From contig CAYXQC010000002.1 of assembly GCA_964467385.1 (NCBI GenBank), positions 65,625 through 129,624 on the forward strand: 64,000 nucleotides of DNA. Direction: 5' to 3'. Origin of the DNA: an uncultured Candidatus Saccharibacteria bacterium. GTDB lineage: Bacteria > Patescibacteriota > Minisyncoccia > Phycocordibacterales > CAIZLB01. The position numbers were made by a program, and so were the translations under genes. The notes beneath the pieces were generated by a model. That model was not told where the DNA came from, searched no databases, and saw only the letters and a list, made by a program, of their open reading frames with translations. Positions 15,316 through 59,430 of the stretch are shown here, piece after piece (position 1 is the first letter of the stretch; every line of letters starts with the position of its first letter).

Positions 15316-15325
15316 GGTCCAGTGG

Positions 15326-32767: not shown

Positions 32768-32834
32768 CAAGCTTTGCTTAAATACCCTATCCAATGCAAA
32801 ATTGATAAGGCATTTATCAGTAAGCGTAAAATAA

Positions 32835-33923: not shown

Positions 33924-33956
33924 TTAGATGTTATCTATGTTATATTGCACATCATT

Positions 33957-34029
33957 CGGGGCGTGGTGTAACGGCTAACATACCTGTTTTGGGAACAGGT
34001 GACTTCGGGTTCGAATCCCGACGCCCCGA
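33957..34029 (+). tRNA. tRNA-Pro (anticodon TGG)
   Basis: Acceptor CGGGGCG/CGCCCCG, anticodon stem CCTGT/ACAGG with loop TTTGGGA, T-arm TCGGG-TTCGAAT-CCCGA. Confidence 0.75.
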
Positions 34030-34085
34030 CATTTAGGATATTTAGTGGAGTCTTTAGATACTAATTTTATAAAATCAATACAAAG

Positions 34086-34394
34086 ATGTTTAAAAAGAAT
34101 ACTGAGGATTTTGAGTGCGAAAATTGTCACGTTGCTGTAAAAGGGGATGGGTATACCAATCATTGTCCGAATTGCCTATATAGCAAGCATGTTGATGTTG
34201 AGCCTGGCGACAGAATGGCCCTCTGTAAAGGTATTATGCAACCTGTGTGGATTGAAGGTATTGATGGGAAGTACAAAATAACTCACAGTTGCAGAAAGTG
34301 TGGTCACAAAAAGGTGAATAAAGTATCTGATAAAGATAATTTTGATGTAGTGGCTAAGATTGCAAAGGAAAGAAATCCTGATTTGCTCAAATAG
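34086..34394 (+). CDS. RNHCP-domain-like Cys-rich small protein
   Basis: 102 aa with CENCH, (T)NHCPNC and C..C motifs, the spacing of a zinc-ribbon/RNHCP domain. Confidence 0.45.
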   Translation: MFKKNTEDFECENCHVAVKGDGYTNHCPNCLYSKHVDVEPGDRMALCKGIMQPVWIEGIDGKYKITHSCRKCGHKKVNKVSDKDNFDVVAKIAKERNPDLLK

Positions 34395-34411
34395 CCCGCA
34401 GCTTGGCCGTA

Positions 34412-35665: not shown

Positions 35666-35782
35666 TCAGCAAATTATATCAAATAATCGTCAAGTATTGT
35701 TTTAGACACCCTGCTTTGCTATAGTATGCTCACGTTGCGTTTTGGTAGTTGTGGTTAGCATCAGTCTATACGCGCAAAGTTT

Positions 35783-35853
35783 GCGGGATTGGTTTAGTGG
35801 TAGAATGACTGCCTTCCAAGCAGTAGACAAGGGTTCGATTCCCTTATCCCGCA
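35783..35853 (+). tRNA. tRNA-Gly (anticodon TCC)
   Basis: Acceptor GCGGGAT/ATCCCGC, anticodon stem CTGCC/GGCAG region with loop CTTCCAA, T-loop TTCGATT. It is followed by a hairpin and T-run at 35866..35891. Confidence 0.75.
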
Positions 35854-43644: not shown

Positions 43645-43674
43645 TTGACTATATTGGTATATGTACTGTATAAT
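43645..43674 (+). promoter_or_regulatory. Near-consensus sigma70-type promoter (TTGACT, 18-nt spacer, TGn-TATAAT)
   Basis: TTGACT at 43645..43650 and TGTATAAT ending at 43674. It lies in the divergent spacer between nusA and the small membrane-protein gene. Confidence 0.4.
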
Positions 43675-43777
43675 ATGTTTCCATAAGGCTCGTGTTACCA
43701 AGGGTTCAAAAAATGGCTTACCTAAGCCGTTACCTGCGATTTACGAGTCTTCCACTGAAACTCAGCCTATCCGCACT

Positions 43778-44122
43778 ATGTACCTCAAAAATGTTCGCCG
43801 GAGCAATCAGCTCCTCTTTCAAGTTGTCATGACCGTGTTGGCCATGATCCTTGCTTGCAGCTTTATCGCCGCTCGCACCGGAATCAATGTCGTGGTCATT
43901 GCGATCACTGCGATTCTCTTCGTTCTTGGAACCTTGGTCCTCGAGGTTCGTTTCAAGTGGACAAATCGCCGTCTTATCCGGCTTGGGAAACTCATCGGAT
44001 CTCTGTGCCAGTTGGCAGAGATTAAAATCAGGATCATTCGTCTTCGGCGTGATCTTGCGCTCGAAAAAGAAATCCTGGGTTTCCGCTTCAACCGGCTACT
44101 TGATCTTCGCCTCTGGCACTAG
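43778..44122 (+). CDS. Small hydrophobic membrane protein. The ORF-track start at 43661 overlaps the promoter and is probably over-extended
   Basis: About 114 aa from MYLKNVRR with two TM helices. A Rho-independent-type terminator lies at 44154..44192 (CGGCTG...CAGCCGG plus T-run). Confidence 0.35.
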   Translation: MYLKNVRRSNQLLFQVVMTVLAMILACSFIAARTGINVVVIAITAILFVLGTLVLEVRFKWTNRRLIRLGKLIGSLCQLAEIKIRIIRLRRDLALEKEILGFRFNRLLDLRLWH

Positions 44123-44355
44123 TTACCACGCATCGATCAAAAAACCAAAAACATCGGCTGTCTCATCACGAGGCAGCCGGTTTCTTTTTTGTAATATTTC
44201 ACATAGATTATTTTCAATGGATCATCCTTTCAAAGATTTTATAGATTCTTGATGGAAAATTCATCATCGTGTCGCCATATTACTTTCCACATTCTCGCAG
44301 GAAAAATAAACAAATTTTTTCACAATCTCTGCTATAATTTATCTAACAAAGAACT

Positions 44356-46155
44356 ATGTACATTGCACCGGAGCAATTGAAAAAGTATATTCTCGACGCG
44401 AAAATTGTATCGCGTGAGGATCTTGAAGCTGCTGAAACTGAAGCAGAGAAAAATAAACAGGATGTTGGTGAAGTGTTGGTGTCGCAAGGAAAAATTTCTG
44501 AGGATGATTTTCGACGAATGCAGGCACATGTGATGGGAATTCCTTTTGTTGATTTGAAAAATCAGAAACTTGAATTTGAAGTCCTTGCACTTATTCCTGA
44601 GCCAATTGCGCGAAATCATAACATTGTGGCATTTAAGAAAAATGCTGATAATGCCAATCAACCAGGTTCTGAGGCGACTCTTGAGGTGGCAATGCTCGAT
44701 ACAGATGATCTTGGTGCCATCGATTTTATTAAGAAAAAAACTGGACTGAAGATTTTGCCACGACTTACGAATACTGAGTCGATGAAGTCTGCACTTATTC
44801 AGTATCAAAAAAGTTTGAAAGCAGATTTTGGTGACATCATTCAGCAGGAAGCTGCATCACTTAAAGTGACTATAGAAGGTGAGGCGAGTAATGTAGGTGA
44901 AGCTGGTGCTGAAGCTACTGGCGATGATTTGAAAAAATTGGCAGAAGATCTACCAGTGGTGCGTATTGTAGACACTTTACTGAAGCACGCTGCTCTTCAA
45001 AACGCTTCTGATATTCACATAGAACAGTCAGAGTTTGAGGTGGTTGTTCGATATCGAATCGACGGTATGCTTCACGACGCCATGATTTTGCCGAAGTCCG
45101 CAGGTGCCAGCATTATTGCGCGTATCAAAGTACTTTCTAACTTGAAGCTTGATGAAAAAAGACTTCCACAAGATGGACGATTTAGAATTGAACTTAATGG
45201 CGAAAAAATTTCTTTCCGTGTTTCTATTTTGCCGACATACTTTGGCGAAAAAATTGTAATGCGACTTCTTCGAGAAAGTGTTTCTGGGTTCACACTTGAG
45301 AAACTTGGTTTTCATGGACGTGATCTGGAGATTCTTCATGAGGCCTCTGGGATGTCAGAGGGTTTGATTCTTACAACTGGTCCAACTGGTTCAGGAAAAA
45401 GCACTACATTGTATACGATGCTTGATCTTGTAAATACGCCCGATGTAAATATTTCAACAGTAGAAGATCCGGTGGAATATCAGATGAAGCGAGTAAATCA
45501 AACTCAGATTCGATCTGAAATAGGTCTAACATTTGCCTCAGGTCTTCGATCACTTCTTCGACAAGATCCAGACATTATTATGGTGGGAGAAATTCGAGAC
45601 AATGAAACGGCGTCTTTAGGTATCAATGCTGCACTTACAGGCCACTTGGTACTTTCGACTCTTCACACTAACTCTGCAGCTGGTGCTATTCCACGATTGA
45701 TGGATATGAAATGTGAGCCATTCCTTCTCGTATCTACTTTGAAAATTGTGATTGCACAGCGGCTTGTCCGACATCTAGGAAATTCAAAAGAGCAATACAT
45801 TTTGAGTAAAGAAGAACTAGCTTCTATTTCAAAGAAAATTAATATGGATAATGTACTTAAGGCCCTTCGTGAGGAAAAAATTGTTGGACCAAAAGATGAT
45901 TGGTCTACTATTCCGTTTTATAAGCCGAAGCCTGATGCAGAAAGTGAGGATGGATATCATGGGCGATTAGGTATTCATGAAGTGCTTCGAATCTCGCCAA
46001 CTATCAAAGATATCATTATGAAAAATGGTACAAGTGATGATATTGAGAAGCAAGCGCGAGCAGAAGGTATGATGACTATGATTGAGGACGGTATATTCAA
46101 GGCGGTGCAGGGTCTGACTTCGATCGAAGAAATTCTTCGAGTGGTTTCGGAGTAG
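44356..46155 (+). CDS. pilB: Type IV pilus assembly ATPase PilB (GspE family)
   Basis: N-terminal GSPII_E_N-like domain, Walker A GPTGSGKSTT, Asp/His boxes, Walker B IIMVGEIRD. Confidence 0.9.
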   Translation: MYIAPEQLKKYILDAKIVSREDLEAAETEAEKNKQDVGEVLVSQGKISEDDFRRMQAHVMGIPFVDLKNQKLEFEVLALIPEPIARNHNIVAFKKNADNANQPGSEATLEVAMLDTDDLGAIDFIKKKTGLKILPRLTNTESMKSALIQYQKSLKADFGDIIQQEAASLKVTIEGEASNVGEAGAEATGDDLKKLAEDLPVVRIVDTLLKHAALQNASDIHIEQSEFEVVVRYRIDGMLHDAMILPKSAGASIIARIKVLSNLKLDEKRLPQDGRFRIELNGEKISFRVSILPTYFGEKIVMRLLRESVSGFTLEKLGFHGRDLEILHEASGMSEGLILTTGPTGSGKSTTLYTMLDLVNTPDVNISTVEDPVEYQMKRVNQTQIRSEIGLTFASGLRSLLRQDPDIIMVGEIRDNETASLGINAALTGHLVLSTLHTNSAAGAIPRLMDMKCEPFLLVSTLKIVIAQRLVRHLGNSKEQYILSKEELASISKKINMDNVLKALREEKIVGPKDDWSTIPFYKPKPDAESEDGYHGRLGIHEVLRISPTIKDIIMKNGTSDDIEKQARAEGMMTMIEDGIFKAVQGLTSIEEILRVVSE

Positions 46156-46224
46156 TCGGCGTTGATAGATTTTGCTTGGCACTTGAGTTGCGCAAAGATC
46201 TGGTAAAATTTTTAGAATATTTTT

Positions 46225-47439
46225 ATGAAATTTTCATACACAGCTATTAACAAGGATGGTCAAAAATACACTTCTACGATTGAAGCTAGTGATAAAGCTG
46301 GTTTTTATACTGAGTTTAGAAAAGTGGGAGATGTGCTTGTGGCCGTAAAGGAATCATCTGAAATAAAAAAGAAAGGTCTTTCAATGGAAATCACCTGGTT
46401 TGAGCATGCAAAAGTGATGGATAAGATTATTTTTGCCCGAAATCTCGGAAACATGCTCGATGCAGGACTTTCACTTTCTCGGGCAATCACCGTGATGGAG
46501 CGACAATCAAAAAGTCCACTTTTGAAACGAACTTATACTGGACTTAATGAATCTATTTCTTCTGGGAAAAGTTTTCATGAGGCACTCGATATGTATCCAA
46601 AGGTTTTCCCTAAGCTCTTTGTGGCTATGGCTAAAGTGGGTGAGGAAGGTGGAAATCTTGCCGAGACACTTCGACAAGTAGGTAATCAAATGGAGAAGAG
46701 CTACATGCTTACAAAGAAGGTTAAAGGTGCGATGATGTATCCGTCTATTATCATTGGTGTGATGATTACAATTGCCATTCTCATGATGATTTATGTGGTA
46801 CCAGGACTGACAAATACATTCAAAGAGCTCAAAGTGCCACTTCCGACTTCTACCAAGGTGATTATAGCTATTAGTGATTTTGTTTCGGCTCATTACATTA
46901 TTACGCTCGGTGGATTTATTGCACTTGTGATTGCACTTATCTTCGCAGGAAAAACTAAAGTCGGCGCGCGAGCATATGACTTTGTCTCTCTTAAGGTGCC
47001 TGTGATAAGTACTATCGTAAAAGAAGGAAATTCTGCACAAACCGCTCGTACACTTTCATCACTTCTGACATCGGGAGTAGATATGCTTTTAGCGGTAAAG
47101 ATCACCGGGGAGGTGTTGCAAAATAGCTATTATAAAAAAGTGATGGAGGATAGTCAGATTGTGATAGAAAAAGGAGAACCTCTCTCAACTATATTTGTAA
47201 AAGAAGAAAAGTTGTATCCAATTTTTGTAGGAGAAATGATGAGTGTAGGAGAAGAAACTGGCCGAATGGCACCAATGCTTGCTGGTGTTGCCACATTTTA
47301 TGAAAATGAAGTTGAGCAAAAAACTAAAGATCTCTCTACAATTATTGAACCAATCTTGATGGTGTTTATAGGTGCGTCAGTAGGATTCTTCGCTATCTCG
47401 ATGATTAAGCCGATCTATTCGATTATGAATAATGTATAA
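46225..47439 (+). CDS. pilC: Type IV pilus inner-membrane platform protein PilC (GspF family)
   Basis: 404 aa with a duplicated GspF-type domain and 3 TM regions. It lies immediately downstream of pilB. Confidence 0.85.
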   Translation: MKFSYTAINKDGQKYTSTIEASDKAGFYTEFRKVGDVLVAVKESSEIKKKGLSMEITWFEHAKVMDKIIFARNLGNMLDAGLSLSRAITVMERQSKSPLLKRTYTGLNESISSGKSFHEALDMYPKVFPKLFVAMAKVGEEGGNLAETLRQVGNQMEKSYMLTKKVKGAMMYPSIIIGVMITIAILMMIYVVPGLTNTFKELKVPLPTSTKVIIAISDFVSAHYIITLGGFIALVIALIFAGKTKVGARAYDFVSLKVPVISTIVKEGNSAQTARTLSSLLTSGVDMLLAVKITGEVLQNSYYKKVMEDSQIVIEKGEPLSTIFVKEEKLYPIFVGEMMSVGEETGRMAPMLAGVATFYENEVEQKTKDLSTIIEPILMVFIGASVGFFAISMIKPIYSIMNNV

Positions 47440-47447
47440 TATTATTT

Positions 47448-47969
47448 GTGATGTCACCTCATTTGTTCAATACATATAAGCCTGTCGGAAAAAATAAACT
47501 CTTTCAGCAAGGTTTTAGCAGAGGATTTAGTCTGATTGAGATGATTATAGTGTTTGGAATCGTCGCTTTAATTGCACAAATATCTATCTCTACATTTGTA
47601 AATGTTTCAAATAATCAGTCACTCGAGAAGGACGTAAACTATGCTGTCTCAATGATCGAAAGGGCTCGAACACAGACTATTAATGCAAAAAACAATAGTC
47701 AATTTGGTATAAAGTTTGCCAGTTCGACTGTGACTCTGTTCCAAGGAACCACATATAATGCAAACTCAGCTTCAAATACAGTCTTTGCATTGTCTTCAAA
47801 AGTTGAAATTGCTGCAATTAATTTAACTGGTGGAGTGTCACAGGCGACTTTTGAATTCATCACAGGGAAGTCAAATGCAACAGGTACAGTTAGGTTCAGA
47901 TTGAAGCAAGATGCTAATTCTTCAAGTACTATCATGTTACATAAGACTGGATTCGCCGAGATTCTATAA
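47448..47969 (+). CDS. Type IV pilin-like protein (prepilin N-terminus)
   Basis: Class III signal G^FSLIEMIIVFGIVALIA, a Gly followed by a hydrophobic helix with Glu at +5. Confidence 0.6.
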   Translation: MMSPHLFNTYKPVGKNKLFQQGFSRGFSLIEMIIVFGIVALIAQISISTFVNVSNNQSLEKDVNYAVSMIERARTQTINAKNNSQFGIKFASSTVTLFQGTTYNANSASNTVFALSSKVEIAAINLTGGVSQATFEFITGKSNATGTVRFRLKQDANSSSTIMLHKTGFAEIL

Positions 47970-47980
47970 AAACTATCGTT

Positions 47981-48508
47981 ATGATTTTCAAAAAGCATCT
48001 AAAAAGTGATAGGGGTATAAAAAGTAATGCGAGCGGTGTCAGTATTGTCGAAGTGCTTGTTGCATCAGCAATCATCATGTCTTCGGTCGTTGCAATTATG
48101 GGTGTATATAGTGGTTTGACTTCTATTTCAGTTCGAAATACGGCAAAAGTACAAGCAGGAATGCTTCTCGATGAGGGAGCTGAAGCACTTAGGTTTATGA
48201 GAGATGTGAGCTGGTCAACCAACATTAACCCTCTGGTAAATGGTACTACGTATAGGTTGTACTGGGATTATAGTGTGAGTAACTATGGTTGGAGAGCAAC
48301 TACTACACAAGCGCTCATAGATGATGAGTTTGATCGAACTTTTGTGCTCTCCTCTGTAAGTCGAGATGCGAGTAATAACATAGTGACATCTGGAGGGACC
48401 ACAGATACAGGTACTCGGAAAGCTACTATTACTGTATCTTGGTTCGATAAGACAGCTACGACGTCAAAGTCAATTCAGATGTATTTGTATAATACATACA
48501 ATAGATAA
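47981..48508 (+). CDS. Type IV pilin-like protein (minor pilin candidate)
   Basis: Basic N-terminal leader, then SGVSIVEVLVASAIIMSSVVAIM with Glu at +5 relative to the putative cleavage site. Confidence 0.5.
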   Translation: MIFKKHLKSDRGIKSNASGVSIVEVLVASAIIMSSVVAIMGVYSGLTSISVRNTAKVQAGMLLDEGAEALRFMRDVSWSTNINPLVNGTTYRLYWDYSVSNYGWRATTTQALIDDEFDRTFVLSSVSRDASNNIVTSGGTTDTGTRKATITVSWFDKTATTSKSIQMYLYNTYNR

Positions 48509-48523
48509 GAGCACATCATAGAT

Positions 48524-49105
48524 ATGAATATTTTTTCAAGAAAATCTAAAATTGTCGGCCATACCGCACAGAGGATTGTGGATAGAAACAAACGAGGTTT
48601 TACGCTGGTTGAAATGCTTATTTACGTCGGTCTATGTGCAGTACTTATGGTTGGTTTAGTCAATGCTATGCTTCTCCTTACTGATGCGTACCGTACAGTT
48701 AAAACAGCTCGAAAGATGGAAAGTTCCGCTATTACATTGATGGACCGTATCATTCGAGAAGCGCGACGTTCGACAGGTATCAATGCAGGAGCATTTGATG
48801 TGCCGAATGGAAGTGTGACACTTGAGGCAGGAAGTTCTACGTCTCCATACTTAACTTTTTATCTACAGGATGGTCGAGCGTATATTACGGATGAAGGAGA
48901 CTCGTCACCGCTCACTGATTCTGACATAGTTGTCGAATCGATGGTATTTAGTCGCTATCCGCTATACAACGTTCAGTTTGCTACAAGCTCAGTACTTCTT
49001 CGGGTTGATTTCACTATAAATAGTGGATCTTCTACTCCAAATTTTACAACAAGAAGTTTTTACGGCTCAGCTATCCTTAGAGGTTCATACGATTTTCAAC
49101 CATAA
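48524..49105 (+). CDS. Type IV pilin-like protein (minor pilin candidate)
   Basis: Leader ...RG^FTLVEMLIYVGLCAVLMVGLV, a prepilin-type N-terminus. Confidence 0.6.
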   Translation: MNIFSRKSKIVGHTAQRIVDRNKRGFTLVEMLIYVGLCAVLMVGLVNAMLLLTDAYRTVKTARKMESSAITLMDRIIREARRSTGINAGAFDVPNGSVTLEAGSSTSPYLTFYLQDGRAYITDEGDSSPLTDSDIVVESMVFSRYPLYNVQFATSSVLLRVDFTINSGSSTPNFTTRSFYGSAILRGSYDFQP

Positions 49106-49136
49106 ACAAATTGTAGTTTTACATTTGTTACAATAG

Positions 49137-50963
49137 ATGTATCGCATTATGAATACATCATCTAAAACTCATTCTCAGATCAAAATTAATACACATGTTT
49201 GCGCCCGGAAAAATAGTGGACAAGTCATAATGGGTTCACTGCTGATGTTTCTATCTATTTCTATTGTCGTACTTGTAGGTATTGCAACACCGGTTGCGGT
49301 ACAGGTACGATCGGCTGCTGATTTTCTTCAATCAAAACAAGGATACATTACTGCTGATGTATTGAATGAAGAAAGTTTGTATCGACTCAATAAAGGTTGG
49401 ACCTTACCTTCAACACTTGTTCTTTCTTTCAATGAATCAACATCAACTGCACTTATCACTGATGTTGACGGTAAAAAACAGATCATTGCTACAGGTGTTT
49501 CCGGTCTATTTTCAAGAATATCTAAAAGTGTTTTCACTCCACAAGGGACTAAGTCAGTCAATATTAGCTATGCCACCCAGATTGGTAATGGGGGTTTAAC
49601 CATGGATGGCAGCCCTACAATCACAGGTAATGCTATTTCGAACGGAAATATAACGGGTTCAGGGGTTTCTACTATTACAGGCAATGCCTTGTCTTCTATT
49701 TCCACACCAGAATCTACAGACCAATCAAATGGTAGTGGAACTCCAGCGGTAAATCTAGTATTTGGAAATGCTAATGCTACACAGGATTTTGCGCAGAGTT
49801 TTACTGTGTCAACAACCACTTCATTATCAAGAGTGCTTTTATATATGAAAAAGACTGGTACACCGTCTAATATAACCGTGAGAGTCACTGCTGATTCTTC
49901 AGGAAATCCAGCTGGCACAAGTCTTGCTACTGCTACACTAAATGTCACTCAGATCGCAACTTCGTATTCGTGGGTTCCAGTAGTGTTCACTTCGAATACT
50001 TCATTAACTCCAGGGACTACATATTGGCTCGTTTTAGACGTTCCTTCGAATTCAAATACAAGCAATTTTACTATGGGTATAAGTAATACAGATTCATATA
50101 GATCTGCGAATTCAGTTAAGATGGGACGATACAATGTGAGTAGTTGGACAACTTCTACTTCAAATTATGATGCATTTTTCAAACTCTATCTCGGCGGCGT
50201 GAGTTCTATTTCAGGAGTAGTAGTAAATGGATTTGCTTCTGCGTATTCAGTAAGTAACTCGACGGTTTCTGGGGCACTTTATTGTCAAAGTGGCTCTGGT
50301 AATAACAAATCATGTAACACTTCATCTTCAACTCCGGTATCTATTTCTTACCCGCTTGCTGATTCAAATATCACTGATTGGAAAGCAGAAGCTACGGCTG
50401 GAGGTGTACGAACTGGCAATGTAACTATTAATGGAGTTACTGCTACAACTACGGGGCCAATCAAGATAAATGGAAACCTTACGATTAGTGAGAGTGGTCG
50501 ACTTACTATGACTGGTACTATCTATGTAACAGGAGATGTGACTATTAACGGTGCTGCAAACCTGAGTGTTGATTCTTCTTATGGTGCAAAAACAGGTGTG
50601 CTTATTGCAGATGGAAAAATCAATGTCACTGCCTCAGGTGCTGTTTCTGGTAGTGGTACGGCTGGTAGTTATGTGCTTTTTGTGACTACAAGTACTTGTG
50701 GAGGTACTGCTACTTGTTCAGGAGGTGCTTCAGCTATAACCGTGAGTGGTGCAGCAGGTGCCGTGGTGCTTTTCGCTCCAAATGGAAAAGTGGCATTCAC
50801 TGGAAGTGCTAGCGCAAAAGCGGTTGCTGGATATGCCGTGAGCCTATCCGGAGCAACACAAGTCAATTACGAAAGTGGCTTATCAAGTCTCACTTTTAGT
50901 AGTACACAATCAAGTGGGACTTCATCTTGGGTCACAGATACCTGGAAGGAGATTTTTCAGTAG
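49137..50963 (+). CDS. Large (608 aa) Ser/Thr/Gly-rich pilin-like or pilus-associated protein, tip-adhesin candidate
   Basis: An N-terminal hydrophobic segment (GSLLMFLSISIVVLVGIATPV) is followed by a long beta-rich S/T/G/N repeat region. It is the last gene of the pilus operon. Confidence 0.45.
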   Translation: MYRIMNTSSKTHSQIKINTHVCARKNSGQVIMGSLLMFLSISIVVLVGIATPVAVQVRSAADFLQSKQGYITADVLNEESLYRLNKGWTLPSTLVLSFNESTSTALITDVDGKKQIIATGVSGLFSRISKSVFTPQGTKSVNISYATQIGNGGLTMDGSPTITGNAISNGNITGSGVSTITGNALSSISTPESTDQSNGSGTPAVNLVFGNANATQDFAQSFTVSTTTSLSRVLLYMKKTGTPSNITVRVTADSSGNPAGTSLATATLNVTQIATSYSWVPVVFTSNTSLTPGTTYWLVLDVPSNSNTSNFTMGISNTDSYRSANSVKMGRYNVSSWTTSTSNYDAFFKLYLGGVSSISGVVVNGFASAYSVSNSTVSGALYCQSGSGNNKSCNTSSSTPVSISYPLADSNITDWKAEATAGGVRTGNVTINGVTATTTGPIKINGNLTISESGRLTMTGTIYVTGDVTINGAANLSVDSSYGAKTGVLIADGKINVTASGAVSGSGTAGSYVLFVTTSTCGGTATCSGGASAITVSGAAGAVVLFAPNGKVAFTGSASAKAVAGYAVSLSGATQVNYESGLSSLTFSSTQSSGTSSWVTDTWKEIFQ

Positions 50964-51052
50964 GTTTTTATAGTGCAAATTTCTATATTTGGTTACAGCC
51001 TTCGTCTTTTGTGAATAGGTCTTGATTCGGCATCTTTTGCTATAATCATTTC

Positions 51053-52009
51053 ATGAAAAATAAAAAACCACTTCTTGTAGGAAATTGGAAAATGAATCCG
51101 GCTGTGCTTGGTGATGCTCGAAAAAAGATCACAGAATTAAAGAAAATAGCCCTTTCATACAAAGATTTGGAAATTGTTATTTGTCCTCCAGCTCCATTTA
51201 TCTCTGGCCTGGCCGAAATTACTCTTGGAAAAAGTTTCCTTTCAGGTGCACGAATACAGGGAAACATGTCTATTTCTCAGGCTGGTAAACACGCCAAGGC
51301 AGGACTTGTACAAATTGGTACTCAGGATGCTTCGCAGCACGAAGAGGGTGGTTCACGAACCGGTGAAATTGGCGTGAAAATGCTAGAAAGCGCTGGTGCG
51401 ACCTATTGTATCGTTGGGCACTCAGAACGACGTGCCGCAGGAGATACAGGTGCGACTATTGCCTTGAAAATCCAGCAAGCACTTCGCACTCACATGAATG
51501 TTATTGTTTGTGTAGGTGAGAAAGAGCGTGATACTGATGCAGGTTATTTAGAAATTATCAAAGCTCAACTCAAAGAGGCTCTTGTTCATGTTACTCGATC
51601 GGAATTTCATAAAATTATTATTGCCTACGAGCCTGTATGGGCGATTGGACGGAAGGATAATGTTGCGATTACTTCATACGACCTCCACCAGATGGTTGTA
51701 TACATCAAGAAATTCCTCAAGGAAACATATGGAGAAACGATTGCTTCTATCACACGGATTCTTTACGGAGGATCAGTTACAGCGGAAAATGCAGAAGATA
51801 TCTTTGTGAAAGGTGAGGTTGATGGTCTCTTGGTTGGACGAGCAAGTTGGGAACCAAAAGGTTTTCGAGATATTTTCGATGCAATCAAGGTTGCTCCGAA
51901 GACTCATAACACAAAAGAGCTAAAGAAATCATTAAAAAAGGCCAAAGAAAATAAGCGAAATGGCGGTTTCAAGGGGCCAATCGATCGAAGCGGATCAAAG
52001 AAGAGATAG
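51053..52009 (+). CDS. tpiA: Triosephosphate isomerase with a ~65-aa basic C-terminal extension
   Basis: LVGNWKMN, IVGHSERR and YEPVWAIG catalytic motifs, followed by a Lys/Arg-rich tail (KKSLKKAKENKRNGGFKGP...). Confidence 0.85.
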   Translation: MKNKKPLLVGNWKMNPAVLGDARKKITELKKIALSYKDLEIVICPPAPFISGLAEITLGKSFLSGARIQGNMSISQAGKHAKAGLVQIGTQDASQHEEGGSRTGEIGVKMLESAGATYCIVGHSERRAAGDTGATIALKIQQALRTHMNVIVCVGEKERDTDAGYLEIIKAQLKEALVHVTRSEFHKIIIAYEPVWAIGRKDNVAITSYDLHQMVVYIKKFLKETYGETIASITRILYGGSVTAENAEDIFVKGEVDGLLVGRASWEPKGFRDIFDAIKVAPKTHNTKELKKSLKKAKENKRNGGFKGPIDRSGSKKR

Positions 52010-52099
52010 TTTGAAATAATGCTGAATGGTGTAGTAAAAAGTGTGGCAAAATAAAGAAAACAAAGCGTAGATAGCAGATAAAAAATTAATCAAAAATTT

Positions 52100-53284
52100 A
52101 TGCACATAAAATCAATCACAGAACTTGGACAAGTAGAATTAAAGGGGAAACGGGTGCTGGTACGTGTTGATTTTAATGTTCAGGTGTATGAAGGAAAAAT
52201 TCTTGATGATCTTCGGGTACGAAAAACCTTACCGACTATTAAGTTTTTACGTGACGCTGGAGCAAAAATTATTCTTATCTCACATATTGAAAGCAAGGAT
52301 GACACCGGTCTTCGGCCGGTTGCTGATTACATCAGCGCTCACTATGCCGCAGAGTGCGGCGAAGTTAAGTTTGTTGAGAACTTTTTGAGTGAATCTTCAC
52401 GAGAAGTGTGCTCAGCTACGAACGAGAATTTCAAAAATGGACAGGTCGTCCTCTTCGAAAATCTTCGTACAAGTGAAGGTGAAAAAGCCAATGATCCAGA
52501 ATTTGCAAAACACCTAGCGAGTTTTGCAGATATATACGTAAACGATGCATTCGCTGTTTCTCATCGAGCACATGCATCTGTTGTTGGAGTACCGGCACTG
52601 TTTCCAAATGCTCGATTCGCAGGCATTCAGCTTGGCCTCGAGCTCGAAAATCTAAAAACTGCTTTCAATCCTCCTCACCCTTTTATTTTTATCCTTGGTG
52701 GCGCAAAGTTCGAAACGAAATTGCCACTTATTGAGAAATTTTCAAAAACTGCCGACTATCTATATCTTGGCGGAGCTTTGCTAAATGACATTCTCAAAGC
52801 AAAAGGATTTTCTGTTGGTAAATCGCTCGTGTCTTCTGGTTCTGTGGATGTATCAGCCGCGGCTTCGAATCCCAAAGTAATTATTCCAGATGATGTGATT
52901 GTCGAGCGTGCCGGTGAAAAGATGGCTGTAGCTTTAGATGACGTATGTGACGACGATATGATCATGGACGTTGGACCTTCATTTACGCAAAAACTTCTTG
53001 AGCACATTGCAAGTGCGAAGTTTGTTCTCTGGAATGGACCGATGGGTAATTATGAAAAAGGATATAAAGAGCAAACGGTTTCTATGGCGCGTGTGATTGC
53101 CGAATCTTCGGCACAGTCTCTGATCGGAGGTGGTGACACGACTGCAGCTATCGCAGAGCTAGGATTTGATGCGGTCAAAGATGGTAAAGGTAACACCTCA
53201 CATATGTTCGTCTCAACTGGTGGTGGCGCAATGCTCGAATATCTAGAAAACGAAACGCTCCCAGGTGTGGAAGCGCTCGCTTAA
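52100..53284 (+). CDS. pgk: Phosphoglycerate kinase
   Basis: KRVLVRVDFNV N-terminal motif and a C-terminal nucleotide-binding domain (GGGDT). Confidence 0.9.
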   Translation: MHIKSITELGQVELKGKRVLVRVDFNVQVYEGKILDDLRVRKTLPTIKFLRDAGAKIILISHIESKDDTGLRPVADYISAHYAAECGEVKFVENFLSESSREVCSATNENFKNGQVVLFENLRTSEGEKANDPEFAKHLASFADIYVNDAFAVSHRAHASVVGVPALFPNARFAGIQLGLELENLKTAFNPPHPFIFILGGAKFETKLPLIEKFSKTADYLYLGGALLNDILKAKGFSVGKSLVSSGSVDVSAAASNPKVIIPDDVIVERAGEKMAVALDDVCDDDMIMDVGPSFTQKLLEHIASAKFVLWNGPMGNYEKGYKEQTVSMARVIAESSAQSLIGGGDTTAAIAELGFDAVKDGKGNTSHMFVSTGGGAMLEYLENETLPGVEALA

Positions 53285-57004: not shown

Positions 57005-58645
57005 GTGACTGATGCAGATATCGAGAAAACTGAAAAAATAGAAATCACAAGGTTTTTTGTATTTTTTGGATTGATAATGTTGGCGATCTCTGTAATTGCA
57101 GGCCGATATGTTTTAGTGAAAAGACATGACGTAGAGACAAAAAGTTTTTACACAACATACGGAATCAAAGATGATGTCGAATTAGCAAAAAATAAAGTTG
57201 AGATATTTGGAAAAGTCATTTCAGAACCAGAAAATAAGGCTGGGTATCAACGCTTGGTAGTTTCGGTCGTAGCTGGGATTTTTACGGATAGATCTACAAA
57301 TAAATTTGCAGACCAAGAACAGGCATCTCAAATTGAATCAACTGAAAGTAGGAGAATATTTAAAGACACAAAAATTTTGATAAAAAATAAAAACCAGGAT
57401 CAGCAAAATTTTCAATATGCTGATTATGTTCGATTTACTACAAAGTTAAATAGGCCGAAAAATATAACAGGGGAGGATGGTCGGACTTTTGACTACGAAT
57501 CTTATCTTTCTAAAGATGACATATTTTTTGTTGGTGACACGTTTGATATGACGTCCGACATGTCGTCTGGCTATGACACTGTCACAGGTGATCAAAGTGT
57601 AAATTTAAAATCAAAAACACTTCAAGAAAAAATAATCATTGGTTTGTATTCATTTAAGAAAAAATTTATGGAGCATGTTGAGCAAAGTTTACCTCTACCT
57701 CATGCCTATTTGGCGAACGGTTTGGTCATATCCGGAAAAGGGTCACTCAGTAAAATTATTCAAGATCAATTTCAGAAAGTAGGTCTCATACATATTGTAG
57801 TTTTGTCTGGATTTAATATTTCAATTATTGGTGAAAGTATCATTAAAATTTTATCTTTTCTACCAAAAATTTTGAGTGGAATTTTAGGCTCAATCGGAAT
57901 CATCTTGTTTGGCATAATGGCGGGAGGAGGAGCAACTGTATATCGTTCAGTTATCATGGCACTGATTGGAATCTATGCACGAATTTTCGACCGGAAGAAT
58001 TCAGCAATTATGTCACTTTTTTTGGCTGGAACTTTGATGCTTTTAGTTAATCCAAAATTACTATTTGAGGATCCTGGTTTCCAATTAAGCTTCATGGCAA
58101 CATTTGGGCTTATTAGTCTATCAAGTCCAATAGAGAAAATTTTGATGTCTTTTTGGAAATCATTTGCACCCAAAATTGGTTGTAAGGCAGAACCTGGAAA
58201 AATATTGAAAGGTGTTTTTGAATTGATATCCTCGACTCTTGCGACTCAGGTTTCTACGTTACCACTTATTATTCAATTCTCTGGGTTGGCATCCTTTGTA
58301 GCATTACCGGTCAATATGATAGTCCTTCCATTTATCCCCCTCACCATGCTCATGGTGTTTTTTATTGGCGCACTCAGTTTCATAAATCCATGGCTCAGTT
58401 TTATCCCCACCATTGTTTCGTGGTTCCTACTGTCGTATGAATTCATGGTGGTGAAACTCGGGTCAAGTGTTCCGTATGGATTTATAAAACTTGGACCGGT
58501 GTCTAAACAGTGGATCTTTACTCTGTATTTCGTAGTTGTGCTTTTGGTGTCAATAGGAAATCTCGATATTTTTGCAAGAATCATAAAAACTTTAGTTAAA
58601 GTTATCCACAAGTTTGTCAGAAAAAAGCAGTTTTGTGTAACTTGA
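57005..58645 (+). CDS. comEC: ComEC/Rec2 competence channel: N-terminal (DUF4131 plus Competence) domains only
   Basis: Polytopic membrane protein with the Competence-domain motif HIVVLSGFNISIIG. It lacks a metallo-beta-lactamase domain. Confidence 0.75.
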   Translation: MTDADIEKTEKIEITRFFVFFGLIMLAISVIAGRYVLVKRHDVETKSFYTTYGIKDDVELAKNKVEIFGKVISEPENKAGYQRLVVSVVAGIFTDRSTNKFADQEQASQIESTESRRIFKDTKILIKNKNQDQQNFQYADYVRFTTKLNRPKNITGEDGRTFDYESYLSKDDIFFVGDTFDMTSDMSSGYDTVTGDQSVNLKSKTLQEKIIIGLYSFKKKFMEHVEQSLPLPHAYLANGLVISGKGSLSKIIQDQFQKVGLIHIVVLSGFNISIIGESIIKILSFLPKILSGILGSIGIILFGIMAGGGATVYRSVIMALIGIYARIFDRKNSAIMSLFLAGTLMLLVNPKLLFEDPGFQLSFMATFGLISLSSPIEKILMSFWKSFAPKIGCKAEPGKILKGVFELISSTLATQVSTLPLIIQFSGLASFVALPVNMIVLPFIPLTMLMVFFIGALSFINPWLSFIPTIVSWFLLSYEFMVVKLGSSVPYGFIKLGPVSKQWIFTLYFVVVLLVSIGNLDIFARIIKTLVKVIHKFVRKKQFCVT

Positions 58646-58765
58646 AACAAGGCAGTATTGAGGCTGTATTTTCGACTTATCCACAAGATTGCAAAAAAGT
58701 TTTAAAAATTATCCACAAAAAAACACCGAGGCTAGTACTTCCCCGGTGAGTTTTCCACAAGTTTG
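58598..58765 (+). promoter_or_regulatory. Array of four same-orientation DnaA-box-like motifs (TTATCCACA x3, TTTTCCACA x1)
   Basis: TTATCCACA at 58602..58610, 58677..58685 and 58709..58717, and TTTTCCACAAGTTTGT at 58751. Two copies share the extended CCACAAGTTTGT. The array spans the 3' end of comEC-N and the convergent spacer to sod. Confidence 0.4.
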
Positions 58766-58803
58766 TGCGAGTTACTCTGCACAATTCTACATTCGAAAAT
58801 GTG

Positions 58804-59385
58804 CTATGTAACTCGGTTCTCTACCACACTCCAGTTCAAGTTTTTGAAGAATGCTTCAATGTATTTTTTCTTTTCTGATGGTGGAACATCGAGCATATAT
58901 GAGTGTTCCCACATGTCGAGTGCAAGGATGACTTTGAGGGAAGTGAGATGTCCGAGATGCTGTTCGTCGACCCATACATTCAGAAGTTTGTCCGATACGG
59001 GATCGTAATACAGAATCGCCCAACCGATTCCTCGCGTCATCGCGAGCTGTTTGAAAGATGTAACCCATGTTTCAAAAGATCCAAAATCGGCAACGATTTT
59101 CTGAACTAACTTTGAGCTAGAATCGCTGTCTTTTTGACCTCCAATAAATTGCTCAAAATAGTACTCATGATTTCTCATGCCATCAAATTCAAACCCAAAT
59201 CTTCGACGAAGTTCACCGATGGTATATGCATTTTTGTCAGCATCAACTTGAAGCTCTGAAATTTTTTCAAGAATTAAATTCGCGTGCTTCACGTATCCTG
59301 CATACAACTTCATGTGCTCATCGATTGTTCGCTGACTGATATCGACTAATTGCCCGATTTCGAATTTCTGTTCTGTAAAACTCAT
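58804..59385 (-). CDS. sodA: Fe/Mn superoxide dismutase
   Basis: Metal ligand context (HMKLYAGYVKHAN, DMWEHSYMLD) and SOD length. Confidence 0.85.
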   Translation of the reverse strand: MSFTEQKFEIGQLVDISQRTIDEHMKLYAGYVKHANLILEKISELQVDADKNAYTIGELRRRFGFEFDGMRNHEYYFEQFIGGQKDSDSSSKLVQKIVADFGSFETWVTSFKQLAMTRGIGWAILYYDPVSDKLLNVWVDEQHLGHLTSLKVILALDMWEHSYMLDVPPSEKKKYIEAFFKNLNWSVVENRVT

Positions 59386-59430
59386 AAAGATAATAGATAA
59401 AAATAAGCTAATAATGAATTAATAATACCA

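What the first reader, a model, noticed from the sequence alone, without database searches (positions are those of the whole stretch)
44356..50963. Type IV pilus operon with three prepilins and a 608-aa pilin-like giant but no peptidase or retraction ATPase in view
pilB and pilC are followed by three small ORFs with class-III (prepilin) leaders (G^FSLIEM, SGVSIVEVL, G^FTLVEML). The operon ends with a 608-aa S/T/G-rich beta-repeat protein with an N-terminal hydrophobic anchor, a tip-adhesin or giant minor pilin candidate. PilD, PilT and PilMNO are absent from the operon. In episymbiotic CPR bacteria type IV pili are thought to mediate host attachment and motility. The large terminal protein is the likeliest specificity determinant.
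Basis: partly seen in the sequence, partly recalled or inferred. Interest (0 to 1): 0.6.

Follow-up and report, generated by a model that had tools for sequence, protein, structure and literature searches.

The report
Pilus operon with giant tip pilin
This is a six-gene type IV pilus module conserved across Paceibacteria (ultrasmall CPR bacteria) that encodes the motor, the membrane platform and a four-protein tip set. The last tip protein is a 608-residue pilin carrying a beta-helix and a lectin-like domain, which makes the module a lineage-specific variant of a known design and a candidate for how these cells grip their targets.

Summary
The six genes are pilB, pilC, three prepilins with Gly(-1) and Glu(+5), and a 608-aa pilin-like protein. 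No prepilin peptidase, PilT, PilMNO or further prepilin lies in the 64 kb window.

The window comes from a Paceibacteria (Parcubacteria/Nomurabacteria) genome. The order PilB-PilC-Pn1-Pn2-Pn3-Big-TpiA-Pgk is the same in all 85 related loci fetched, apart from contigs cut short.

Family-level profile hits assign the small pilins to the universal core minor-pilin series:
- Pn1 resembles GspH.
- Pn2 resembles PilV/GspI/ComGE.
- Pn3 resembles GspJ/ComGF.

The 608-aa protein sits in the GspK/PilX position and, like those proteins, lacks Glu5. Its AlphaFold model (pLDDT 88) shows a pilin helix and sheet. Covariation indicates a beta-helix inserted before the last pilin strand, with a lectin-like jelly-roll nested inside it. 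This is the same design as the Thermus tip pilin ComZ, but there is no sequence relationship.

The operon therefore most likely encodes a motor plus a tip/priming complex. The major pilin, the peptidase and any retraction ATPase would be encoded elsewhere.

The "specificity determinant" claim is weak, because the large protein is about as conserved as Pgk. I rate this a new variant of a known kind, of moderate interest.

The parts
44330..44338 (+). Extended -10-like element TGcTATAAT, ending 17 nt before the pilB ATG. It lies downstream of the hairpin-plus-T-run at 44153-44190 that closes the preceding small unit.
   Evidence: Read directly from the sequence. This is a consensus match only, and function is not shown.
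44356..46155 (+). pilB: PilB/GspE-type assembly ATPase (599 aa) with an MshEN-type N-domain. All four ATPase boxes are present, but there is no tetracysteine zinc motif.
   Evidence: Pfam T2SSE 3.6e-119 and MshEN 3.8e-09. NCBIfam PilB 505.7 bits and GspE 497 bits, against ComGA 248 bits.
46225..47439 (+). pilC: PilC/GspF polytopic platform protein (404 aa).
   Evidence: Pfam T2SSF in two stretches, 7.3e-49. NCBIfam GspF 2.4e-84 and PilC 2.3e-76.
47448..47969 (+). Pn1: prepilin (173 aa) with predicted cleavage after Gly26 (G|FSLIE). It is a GspH/FimU-like minor pilin and the likely adaptor between the tip set and the filament.
   Evidence: N_methyl motif. NCBIfam hits below cut-off to PpdA 6.8e-06 (residues 24-157) and GspH 3.2e-05. 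Pfam GspH matches 20 of 68 orthologues. Glu5 is present in 77 of 78 orthologues.
47981..48508 (+). Pn2: prepilin (175 aa) with predicted cleavage after Gly19 (G|VSIVE). It is a PilV/GspI/ComGE-like minor pilin.
   Evidence: Glu5 is present in 81 of 83 orthologues. Of 68 orthologues, 43 match ComGE, 41 match PilV, 32 match GspI and only 1 matches GspJ. All these matches are below the curated cut-offs.
48524..49105 (+). Pn3: prepilin (193 aa) with predicted cleavage after Gly25 (G|FTLVE). It is a GspJ/PilW/ComGF-like minor pilin.
   Evidence: Pfam N_methyl 3.7e-07. Glu5 is present in 80 of 80 orthologues. Of 120 family members, 100 match GspJ and 77 match ComGF. JGI names several members PilW. 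The AlphaFold model has pLDDT 84 and shows a helix at 28-82 followed by 8 strands.
49137..50963 (+). Big: 608-aa modular minor pilin in the GspK/PilX/ComZ position. It has a class-III-like leader ending at Gly28 and no Glu5.
   Evidence: Alignments, N-terminal motif statistics and an AlphaFold model with pLDDT 88.1 and pTM 0.70.
49221..49541 (+). Big residues 29-135: the pilin domain, made of the alpha1 helix (27-85) and a four-stranded sheet (93-135).
   Evidence: Secondary structure of the model. Residues F38, S42 and P52 are conserved.
49557..49748 (+). Big residues 141-204: the first rungs of the beta-helix.
   Evidence: A covariation ladder links 158/159 with 453, 472/473, 499/500, 538/539, 556/557 and 572/573.
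49749..50156 (+). Big residues 205-340: a jelly-roll, lectin-like 'choice-of-anchor R' domain inserted into the beta-helix.
   Evidence: - NCBIfam choice_anch_R scores 36 bits against a cut-off of 30.
- Covariation pairs 200/201 with 335/336 mark the base of the insert.
- Pfam Lectin_like matches 6 of 35 members and DUF4082 matches 2 of 35.
- Foldseek finds CBMs, the Cwp84 lectin-like domain and phage baseplate and tail proteins.
- The domain is absent from the short family variants and duplicated in the long ones.
50283..50315 (+). Big residues 383-393: an invariant Cys-Cys loop, family consensus YCQxGSGNNKSC.
   Evidence: C383 and C393 are present in 114 of 114 sequences. The motif was specific enough to recover 186 species genomes.
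50400..50927 (+). Big residues 422-597: the main body of the beta-helix.
   Evidence: Short regular strands in the model. Pfam DUF5649 repeat at 426-475. Covariation ladder.
50928..50954 (+). Big residues 598-606: the last beta-strand, carrying W598, W603 and E605. It is inferred to return to the pilin sheet.
   Evidence: Strand in the model. Of the 52 top long-range covariation partners of residues 596-608, 43 lie in residues 29-143. The model coordinates could not be inspected.
51053..53284 (+). tpiA and pgk. They are context rather than pilus parts, but they are always adjacent and co-directional and are probably co-transcribed.
   Evidence: Pfam TIM. Gene order in 85 loci. The median gap from Big to Tpi is 28 nt. 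No terminator-like site was found after 50963.

Best explanation
The six genes form a conserved Paceibacteria module of the type IV filament superfamily. It supplies the extension motor (the PilB ATPase), the inner-membrane platform (PilC) and a complete four-member core minor-pilin set in the universal H-I-J-K order. That set is Pn1 (GspH/FimU-like), Pn2 (PilV/GspI/ComGE-like), Pn3 (GspJ/PilW/ComGF-like) and the 608-aa protein in the GspK/PilX/ComZ position.

Proposed mechanism:
1. A prepilin peptidase encoded elsewhere cleaves the four proteins after the conserved Gly.
2. Pn2, Pn3 and the large pilin assemble on PilC into a staggered complex. The large pilin is on top and needs no Glu5, because no subunit sits above it.
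3. Pn1 joins this complex to a major pilin encoded elsewhere.
4. PilB drives extension, so the complex primes the filament and ends up at its tip.
5. At the tip, the roughly 470-residue head of the large pilin is displayed along the filament axis as the ligand-binding end. The head is a beta-helix inserted before the last pilin strand, with a lectin-like jelly-roll nested in it. The ligand is most likely a surface glycan or envelope component of a partner cell.

Shown here: the gene identities, the motifs, the conservation and the predicted fold. Inferred: cleavage, complex formation, tip location and the ligand.
For: Machine genes: PilB and PilC are identified.

Prepilin signatures: Gly(-1) and Glu5 are conserved in about 80 species for Pn1-3. 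The large protein has a conserved Gly(-1) but a hydrophobic residue at +5. E. coli GspK and YgdB show the same split from GspG-J and PpdA-C, and the E. coli gsp operon runs G-H-I-J-K with K the largest.

Family-level assignments:
- Pn1: Pfam GspH in 20 of 68 orthologues.
- Pn2: ComGE in 43, PilV in 41 and GspI in 32 of 68, against GspJ in 1 of 68.
- Pn3: GspJ in 100 and ComGF in 77 of 120.

The large protein: the AlphaFold model (pLDDT 88.1) has a 59-residue N-terminal helix and a four-stranded sheet, followed by beta domains. Covariation shows one beta-helix built from residues 141-204 and 422-597, a jelly-roll inserted at 205-335, and a C-terminal strand that couples to the pilin domain. The middle domain matches choice-of-anchor R above cut-off and resembles CBMs, lectin-like domains and phage receptor-binding and tail proteins.

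Conservation: the gene order is invariant in 85 loci from Paceibacteria, Nomurabacteria and Minisyncoccia, with gaps of 0-28 nt.

Precedents:
- Thermus ComZ is a pilin with a beta-solenoid inserted before the last strand. It follows pilA1-3, binds PilA2 and is modelled at the tip (PMC6561018).
- Saccharibacteria PilX1 and PilX2 are large lectin-like minor pilins with non-canonical signal peptides (PMC11623550).
Against: - All H/I/J assignments rest on matches below the curated cut-offs. For the window's own Pn2 there is no match at all.
- hhalign against single E. coli pseudopilins aligned only the N-terminal helix.
- The Pn3 model found no significant PDB neighbour.
- The large protein has no sequence relative among solved structures. 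ComZ is only a weak Foldseek hit (E 2e-3, TM 0.17).
- No major pilin, peptidase, PilT or PilMNO was found. The rest of the genome could not be searched, so the claim that they are "encoded elsewhere" is an assumption. It is backed only by relatives and surveys.
- The Pn1 consensus N-terminus looks like that of a major pilin (G14, P22), and its profile hits major pilins in the PDB over the helix.
- No experiment or expression data exist for this lineage.
Confidence: 0.55

Rival explanations
1. This is a DNA-uptake (competence) pilus. The large pilin would be a ComZ-like tip receptor for extracellular DNA, which is then handed to ComEC encoded about 6 kb downstream.
For: - The topology (predicted) and the operon position match those of the Thermus DNA-binding tip pilin ComZ.
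- The system has no PilT or PilMNO nearby, as in monoderm Com pili.
- recJ, rnhA and comEC lie just downstream, and this neighbourhood is kept in distant relatives.
- The head is conserved at a housekeeping rate, as expected for a universal ligand.
- CPR bacteria lack nucleotide synthesis and carry com genes (PMC10633639).
Against: - The family is acidic overall, with median pI 5.0 and median net charge -6, and has no conserved basic character in bulk.
- There is no sequence homology to ComZ.
- The whole region, including ClpP, Tig, NusA, Tpi and Pgk, is syntenic, so proximity to comEC may mean nothing.
- In Saccharibacteria, pilus mutants kept wild-type competence, and comEC was dispensable for growth while T4P was essential.
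- The middle domain looks like a carbohydrate-binding module.
Confidence: 0.2
2. The operon is a self-contained minimal pilus. Pn1 would be the major pilin and Pn2, Pn3 and Big the I-J-K tip trimer, so no major pilin from elsewhere is needed.
For: - The Pn1 consensus N-terminus is KG|FTLIELLIVIAIIGIL..I..P, with G14 and P22 as in T4a major pilins.
- The Pn1 profile hits the major pilins PilA, Geopilin and Thermus PilA5 in the PDB.
- hhalign gives GspG the best probability, 97%.
- Pn1 and Big diverge faster than Pn2 and Pn3 among close relatives, as exposed subunits would.
Against: - All of those matches cover only the shared N-terminal helix.
- The only matches that reach into the globular part are to the GspH family: PpdA over residues 24-157, GspH over 24-112, and Pfam GspH in 20 of 68 orthologues.
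- The window's own Pn1 lacks P22.
Confidence: 0.15
3. The large protein is not part of a filament. It would be an uncleaved, signal-anchored surface adhesin that merely shares an operon with pilus genes.
For: - It has no Glu5, and position +1 is Q/A/G rather than F/M.
- Pfam N_methyl does not match it.
- PilX_N matches only 1 of 35 members, at E 0.045.
Against: - Gly(-1) is conserved in at least 90% of members, preceded by a basic or polar leader.
- The model shows a 59-residue continuous helix plus a four-stranded sheet, which is the pilin fold rather than a simple TM anchor.
- The C-terminal strand couples to that domain.
- The gene always occupies the fourth pilin slot.
- Known cap pilins GspK and YgdB also lack Glu5.
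Confidence: 0.07
4. The module is a type II secretion-like pseudopilus in a monoderm cell. A short piston made of H-I-J-K would push proteins through the wall.
For: PilB scores almost equally to GspE (497 against 506 bits), and PilC scores best to GspF. The pilins match Gsp pseudopilin families. No PilT is present.
Against: - There is no GspG-like major pseudopilin and no GspL, GspM, GspC or GspD. phmmer with E. coli GspL and GspM found nothing.
- A 470-residue lectin-like and beta-helix head is what adhesive tips carry, not pistons.
- Pseudopilin-like minor pilins are normal in T4aP (PMC6561018).
Confidence: 0.05

Closest known systems
Thermus thermophilus pilA1-pilA2-pilA3-comZ competence pilin locus (ComZ structure 6QVI)
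   Same: Three small pseudopilin-like minor pilins are followed by a much larger, atypical pilin that pilin-finding software misses. [quoted passage not shown] The predicted topology here is the same, and ComZ appears among the Foldseek hits.
   Different: - There is no detectable sequence homology, and the Foldseek match is weak (TM 0.17).
- The beta-helix here carries an extra nested jelly-roll domain and an invariant Cys loop.
- In Thermus the major pilin pilA4 is adjacent, whereas here none is.
- Here pilB and pilC are in the same operon.
- DNA binding is untested, and the family is acidic.
Core minor pilins and pseudopilins: GspH-I-J-K (T2SS), FimU-PilV-PilW-PilX (T4aP), ComGD-GE-GF-GG (Com pilus)
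   Same: There are four consecutive genes in the H-I-J-K order. The first three have Glu5 and the last lacks it and is the largest, as in the E. coli gsp operon. Family-level profile matches follow that order.
   Different: All matches are below the curated family cut-offs. The K-position protein has a beta-helix and jelly-roll head of about 470 residues instead of GspK's helical insert. No PilY1 partner and no major subunit are encoded nearby.
Saccharibacteria (TM7x) PilX1 and PilX2 large minor pilins
   Same: Both are from CPR bacteria. In each case the largest pilin of its locus carries an accessory, lectin-like C-terminal domain and a non-canonical signal peptide, and is proposed as a tip adhesin (PMC11623550).
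   Different: - PilX2 has a beta-propeller, whereas this protein has a beta-helix with a jelly-roll.
- The TM7x loci include PilM/N/O, and locus 1 also includes PilT and PilD.
- Homology to PilX1 and PilX2 was not tested, because their sequences were not at hand.
Bacillus/Streptococcus ComG operon (comGA-GB-GC-GD-GE-GF-GG)
   Same: The operon layout is ATPase, platform, then pilins. There is no PilT and no PilMNO, and the peptidase is encoded elsewhere. The cell envelope is monoderm.
   Different: The ATPase here has the PilB/GspE N-domain and scores twice as well to PilB/GspE as to ComGA, and PilC scores better to GspF/PilC than to ComGB. There is no ComGC-like small major pilin in first position. 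ComGG is small.
Other modular or tip pilins: ETEC CofB, V. cholerae TcpB, Streptococcus sanguinis PilB
   Same: All consist of a pilin module with extra beta-rich domains that add a function at the tip or on the filament (PMC6561018; PMC8179133 and PMC5207764 listed).
   Different: In those proteins the extra domains are appended C-terminally. Here they are inferred to be inserted before the last pilin strand, with a second level of nesting.

Membership tests
Type IV filament superfamily (T4P/T2SS/Com machines) | PilB/GspE-family ATPase with Walker A, Asp box, Walker B and His box | tested here: met
   Pfam T2SSE 3.6e-119. The motifs are GPTGSGKS at 342, EDPVE at 370, DPDIIMVGEIRD at 404 and TGHLVLSTLH at 428.
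Type IV filament superfamily (T4P/T2SS/Com machines) | PilC/GspF platform protein with two T2SSF domains | tested here: met
   Pfam T2SSF in two stretches, 7.3e-49. NCBIfam GspF 2.4e-84.
Type IV filament superfamily (T4P/T2SS/Com machines) | Subunits with a class III signal peptide: Gly at -1, a hydrophobic helix and Glu at +5 | tested here: met
   Three ORFs in the window carry the motif. It is conserved in 77/78, 81/83 and 80/80 orthologues.
Type IV filament superfamily (T4P/T2SS/Com machines) | Dedicated prepilin peptidase (A24, PilD/GspO/ComC) | tested here: not met
   None was found in the 64 kb window or in the 85 related loci, by Pfam or by phmmer with E. coli GspO. The rest of the genome cannot be tested with these tools. 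A cultured relative has pilD in another locus layout.
Type IVa pilus (motile, retractile) | PilT retraction ATPase and PilM/N/O alignment proteins | tested here: not met
   There is no second PilB/PilT-like ATPase and no PilM/N/O Pfam hit in the window or in the flanks of the 85 loci. The genome outside the window was not searchable.
Type IVa pilus (motile, retractile) | Major pilin gene | tested here: inconclusive
   No further prepilin was found in the window or the related loci. Pn1 has a major-pilin-like N-terminus, but the matches to its globular part are to GspH/PpdA.
Core minor pilin set (GspH-I-J-K / FimU-PilVWX / ComGD-G) | H-type member | tested here: inconclusive
   For Pn1, the matches are PpdA 6.8e-06 and GspH 3.2e-05, at 24-26 bits against cut-offs of 80-158. 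Pfam GspH matches 20 of 68 orthologues, best 1e-06. This is supportive but below threshold.
Core minor pilin set (GspH-I-J-K / FimU-PilVWX / ComGD-G) | I-type member | tested here: inconclusive
   In the Pn2 family, ComGE matches 43, PilV 41 (best 6.9e-10) and GspI 32 of 68 members, against GspJ in 1 of 68. The window's own Pn2 has no hit at E of 0.01 or better. No structure was modelled.
Core minor pilin set (GspH-I-J-K / FimU-PilVWX / ComGD-G) | J-type member | tested here: inconclusive
   In the Pn3 family, GspJ matches 100 of 120 members (best 6.8e-08) and ComGF matches 77 of 120. The window's Pn3 matches GspJ at 5.4e-04, 19.8 bits against a cut-off of 64.85. The AlphaFold model (pLDDT 84) found no significant PDB neighbour.
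Core minor pilin set (GspH-I-J-K / FimU-PilVWX / ComGD-G) | K/X-type last member: a pilin fold without Glu5, enlarged by an extra domain | tested here: met
   Gly(-1) is conserved and the residue at +5 is I/M/V/L. The model shows the pilin helix and sheet followed by about 470 extra residues. E. coli GspK and YgdB likewise lack Glu5.
ComZ family (Thermus competence tip pilin) | Sequence homology to ComZ | tested here: not met
   The profile of 114 sequences found no ComZ match among PDB sequences, even at E up to 10.
ComZ family (Thermus competence tip pilin) | [quoted passage not shown] | tested here: inconclusive
ComZ family (Thermus competence tip pilin) | Binds dsDNA and the I-type pilin | not testable with these tools
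   This needs biochemistry. Bulk charge gives no support: family median pI is 5.0.
ComG competence pilus (monoderm) | ComGA-type ATPase and ComGB platform | tested here: not met
   ComGA scores 248 bits against 506 for PilB and 497 for GspE. ComGB scores 151 bits against 284 for GspF. An N-terminal MshEN domain is present.
PilY1-type tip adhesin | Non-pilin protein with a PilY1 beta-propeller domain | tested here: not met
   There is no PilY1 Pfam hit, and the protein has its own pilin N-domain.

The most novel reading that the evidence does not exclude
The six genes are a complete, stand-alone machine rather than half of a pilus system. In this reading it is a filament with no major pilin, no retraction ATPase and no PilMNO. 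PilB and PilC would extrude only the four-subunit H-I-J-K stalk, which presents a class-wide conserved beta-helix and lectin head with an invariant Cys loop. The whole device would be co-transcribed with tpiA-pgk as a constitutive housekeeping function of Paceibacteria, for example as the obligatory first receptor for DNA or nucleotide scavenging through the neighbouring split ComEC.
Probability: 0.12. Interest if true: 0.7.

Novelty: new variant of a known kind. Interest (0 to 1): 0.45.

Why it matters
Paceibacteria are among the most abundant and diverse CPR lineages in groundwater, lakes and sludge. How they find and hold their partners is unknown, and the pilus work so far is confined to Saccharibacteria.

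This analysis defines a very large, unnamed protein family: more than 10,000 clusters at 50% identity at E of 0.001 or better, and 1,046 at 1e-30 or better. Members are annotated as "hypothetical" or "choice-of-anchor R". The analysis places the family as the cap of a conserved four-pilin tip set and gives a domain map with precise boundaries.

That turns a vague statement (CPR have pili) into testable ones. The head domain (residues 141-597) can be expressed for glycan-array or DNA-binding assays. The Cys loop can be mutated. Tip density can be sought by cryo-ET in the relatives that are now cultured.

It also adds an independent second example of the ComZ design, a solenoid inserted before the last pilin strand, which suggests that this is a recurrent way to build tip receptors.

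Tried and rejected
- **Source genome:** the exact-match look-up of P0001 found no record, so the rest of the genome could not be searched for pilD, pilT, pilM or a major pilin.
- **hhalign:** comparing the Pn1, Pn2, Pn3 and Big N-domain profiles with E. coli GspG/H/I/J/K and PpdA/PpdB/YgdB/PpdC aligned only the shared N-terminal helix. It did not discriminate between types.
- **Profile searches against PDB sequences:** for Pn1-3 these hit only the helices of major pilins. For Big they hit nothing meaningful.
- **Pn3 model:** Foldseek against the PDB gave no significant match, so the J-type fold is not confirmed structurally.
- It was redone with database proteins.
- **Sec signal on Big:** rejected. 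Gly(-1) is conserved and the helix is continuous from residue 27 to 85.
- **Membership of ComG, PilY1 and the ComZ sequence family:** rejected.
- **Bulk electrostatics as support for DNA binding:** none found.
- **A hypervariable domain in Big as a sign of host specificity:** none found. All domains have a mean top-residue frequency of 0.50-0.66.
- **PilX_N Pfam match for the Big N-terminus:** found in only 1 of 35 members, at E 0.045.

Full report
**Observation.** All six ORFs lie on the + strand at the coordinates given.
- 44356-46155 is a PilB/GspE-type ATPase. Pfam T2SSE scores 3.6e-119, with an MshEN N-domain. NCBIfam gives PilB 506 bits, GspE 497 bits and ComGA 248 bits. Walker A, the Asp box, Walker B and the His box are intact.
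- 46225-47439 is a PilC/GspF platform protein with two T2SSF domains.
- The three small ORFs carry G|FSLIE, G|VSIVE and G|FTLVE, that is Gly at -1 and Glu at +5.
- The 608-aa ORF has a basic or polar leader ending in Gly28, followed by QVIMGSLLMF... with no Glu5.

A six-frame motif scan finds no other prepilin in the 64 kb. Pfam scans of every other large ORF, and phmmer searches with E. coli GspO/GspL/GspM and with the window's own PilB and PilC, find none of the missing parts.

**Origin and conservation.** Homologues of the 608-aa protein are full-length proteins from Candidatus Pacebacteria, Paceibacterota, Nomurabacteria and "Patescibacteria group" genomes. They are mostly unnamed or called "choice-of-anchor R domain-containing". 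A scan of one genome per species found relatives in 186 genomes of this group. Some are labelled Saccharibacteria by their submitters, and I could not verify that label.

In the 85 loci fetched, the order PilB-PilC-Pn1-Pn2-Pn3-Big-TpiA-Pgk is invariant. Every departure is a contig cut short. Median intergenic gaps are 0-28 nt. The wider neighbourhood is also kept in relatives that share only 40-57% identity in the large protein. It runs ClpP-trigger factor-NusA, then the operon, then TpiA-Pgk-HIT-RecJ-RNase H-ComEC-SodA-MBL. This is an old, vertically inherited module of the class, not a mobile island.

**The three small pilins.** Across about 80 species, Glu5 is kept in 77/78 (Pn1), 81/83 (Pn2) and 80/80 (Pn3) of the sequences with a recognisable motif. 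No match reaches a curated family cut-off, but the family-level pattern discriminates between types:
- Pn1: Pfam GspH matches 20 of 68 orthologues. The window's own Pn1 matches PpdA over residues 24-157 and GspH over 24-112.
- Pn2: ComGE matches 43, PilV 41 and GspI 32 of 68 orthologues, and GspJ matches only 1.
- Pn3: GspJ matches 100 and ComGF matches 77 of 120 members. JGI names several members PilW.

This is the H-I-J order of the E. coli gsp operon and of ComGD-GE-GF.

The structural check was inconclusive. The Pn3 model is confident (pLDDT 84, a helix at 28-82 and eight strands) but has no significant PDB neighbour by Foldseek. hhalign against single E. coli pseudopilins aligned only the helix.

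Pn1's consensus N-terminus resembles that of major pilins. A rival reading in which Pn1 is the major pilin therefore stays open.

**The 608-aa protein.** Gly(-1) is conserved in at least 90% of the family, while position +5 is I/M/V/L. This is the signature of cap pilins. In the same comparison, E. coli GspK (G|VALLI) and YgdB (G|VSSLA) lack Glu5, whereas GspG-J and PpdA-C have it.

The AlphaFold model built from 114 sequences is confident (pLDDT 88.1, pTM 0.70). It shows a 59-residue helix (27-85) and a four-stranded sheet (93-135), which is a pilin fold, followed by beta-rich domains and a final strand at 598-606.

I could not read the coordinates, so I used covariation on 291 sequences. It gave three results:
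- A ladder links residues 158/159 with 453, 472/473, 499/500, 538/539, 556/557 and 572/573. Residues 141-204 and 422-597 therefore form one beta-helix.
- Pairs 200/201 with 335/336 mark the base of an inserted domain.
- Of the 52 strongest long-range partners of residues 596-608, 43 lie in the pilin domain (29-143). This indicates that the last strand returns to the pilin sheet.

The architecture is therefore nested: a pilin fold containing a beta-helix, which in turn contains a jelly-roll.

The jelly-roll (about residues 205-340) matches NCBIfam choice-of-anchor R above its cut-off, and weakly matches Pfam Lectin_like and DUF4082. By Foldseek it resembles CBM4, CBM6 and CBM36, the Cwp84 lectin-like domain and many phage baseplate, tail or virion proteins. 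Typical matches cover about 170 columns at rmsd 2-4 Å.

A loop with two invariant cysteines (family consensus YCQxGSGNNKSC, residues 382-393) is the most conserved motif.

The family is very large, with 10,151 50%-identity clusters at E of 0.001 or better and 1,046 at 1e-30 or better. It is also modular. Short forms of about 420-445 aa lack the jelly-roll. Long forms carry two or three copies of it, or other inserts of about 350 aa. No solved structure is related by sequence.

**What is missing.** The window and the flanks of all 85 loci lack a peptidase, PilT, PilM/N/O and any further prepilin. I could not locate the source record, so the rest of the genome is untested.

Published surveys report PilB, PilC, PilM and PilO in most Patescibacteria MAGs (PMC8672522). 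They also report pilB, pilT, pilM and pilC homologues in most CPR phyla (PMC11623550). The cultured relative Minisyncoccus archaeiphilus, from another order, has a locus running pilM ... pilB-pilT-pilC-pilins-pilD (PMC12281837 supplement). That layout is different from the one here. "Encoded elsewhere" is thus plausible but assumed.

**Mechanism.** The best-supported reading is that the operon supplies the motor, the platform and the complete core minor-pilin set. The steps below follow established knowledge of T2SS and T4aP tip complexes: my own knowledge of the GspI-J-K crystal structure and the FimU-PilVWX work, and the summary in PMC6561018.
1. The four proteins are cleaved after Gly.
2. 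The I-, J- and K-type members assemble on PilC with the Glu5-less K-type on top.
3. The H-type member links them to the major pilin.
4. PilB-driven extension carries the complex out as the tip.

A head of about 470 residues cannot be accommodated in the body of a filament. The same argument was made for ComZ.

Gene identity, motifs, conservation and predicted fold are shown. Cleavage, complex formation, tip position and ligand are inferred.

**Function.** Several points favour binding of a surface carbohydrate or envelope component of a partner cell. The nested domain is of CBM, lectin or phage receptor-binding type. Its copy number varies across the family. Saccharibacteria use large lectin-like minor pilins for host binding.

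The rival is DNA capture, as by ComZ. Design, operon position, the absence of PilT and the nearby recJ-comEC fit that reading. Against it, the family is acidic (median pI 5.0), the synteny extends to unrelated housekeeping genes, and in Saccharibacteria pilus mutants stayed competent.

**On "specificity determinant".** Across 70 species the large protein shows median 41% identity to the window's copy. That is like Pgk (43.5%) and Tpi (38%), and above Pn1 (31%) and Pn3 (26%). No domain is hypervariable.

Among the closest relatives the picture is different. Big (57-66%) and Pn1 (58-66%) diverge faster than Pn2 and Pn3 (77-84%). Within Big, the outer domains (59-64%) diverge faster than the helix and the last strand (84-85%). 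The data fit a conserved scaffold with moderately evolving surfaces. They do not fit a fast-evolving host-range protein.

**Comparison and novelty.** By design, the closest known system is Thermus pilA1-3/comZ. By ancestry, it is the generic GspH-I-J-K / FimU-PilVWX set. By biology, it is Saccharibacteria PilX1 and PilX2.

The operon is not a ComG system, because the ATPase and platform are of the PilB/GspE and PilC/GspF type. The large protein is not PilY1, and it is not a sequence relative of ComZ.

What is new:
- the protein family itself and its nested-insertion architecture;
- the fixed six-gene layout without a major pilin, peptidase, PilT or PilMNO;
- the class-wide linkage to tpiA-pgk.

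I file it as a new variant of a known kind, with moderate interest.

**Limits.** There are no expression or experimental data. The H/I/J calls are below threshold. The model coordinates and the more sensitive fold libraries were not available. The genome outside the window could not be searched.

Noticed in passing
window 6168-18697 (- strand): A type IV secretion-like cluster. It contains a VirB4/TraG P-loop ATPase (10934-12928), a PrgI-family protein (13697-14164), an SLT lytic transglycosylase (7686-9155) and eight further large ORFs with no Pfam match. It probably corresponds to the monoderm-conjugation-like T4SS described for Patescibacteria (PMC12102498, listed).
   Followed up: no
window 57005-60627; also L001 17134-20165, L002 19268-21818, L004 17796-20870: ComEC appears to be split. 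The 546-aa ORF has only the DUF4131 and Competence domains. The metallo-beta-lactamase domain is a separate 398-aa ORF, with sodA on the opposite strand between them. The same layout is seen in three distant relatives.
   Followed up: partly
window 50963-53284; 83 related loci: The pilus genes run directly into tpiA and pgk. The gap is 89 nt in the window and has a median of 28 nt in relatives, overlapping in L001. No terminator-like site lies after the large pilin gene. A surface-filament module and two glycolysis genes are probably one transcription unit across the class.
   Followed up: partly
window 44356-46155 (PilB), C-terminal third: PilB lacks the tetracysteine zinc-binding motif usual in PilB/GspE ATPases. 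The window protein has a single Cys, and 56 of 78 orthologues have none in the last 170 residues. In its MshEN-like N-domain, the c-di-GMP motif model scores below cut-off, at 26.6 against 38 bits.
   Followed up: partly
window 43645-44190 (+ strand): A small separate unit lies between nusA and pilB. It has a promoter-like site matching 11 of 12 positions (43645-43674), an ORF of up to 153 aa with hydrophobic stretches and no Pfam match (43661-44122), and a 12-bp GC-rich hairpin with a T-run (44153-44190). It is not conserved at this position in L001, L002 or L004.
   Followed up: no
window 2036-4792: dnaN and dnaA lie here, with rnpA and yidC at 5033-6139, so the window sits next to the chromosomal replication origin. 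Cumulative GC skew rises across the whole window.
   Followed up: no
window 28657-35853: A tyrosine recombinase/integrase (28657-29634) lies a few kb from four tRNA genes (32696-32767, 32835-32905, 33957-34029, 35783-35853). It could be XerC/D or the remnant of an integrated element.
   Followed up: no
window 51053-52009: The TpiA ORF as listed from the first start codon is 318 aa, and in L002 it is called at 308 aa. The Pfam TIM match is split in two stretches, and the protein has a lysine-rich C-terminal tail (KKSLKKAKENKRNGGFKGPIDRSGSKKR). Relatives in L001 and L004 have 266 and 276 aa.
   Followed up: no
locus table (e.g. L009, L012, L015): About 30 of the 80 loci that carry this Paceibacteria-type operon and synteny come from assemblies whose submitters titled them 'uncultured Candidatus Saccharibacteria bacterium'. 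The label looks doubtful but was not checked.
   Followed up: no
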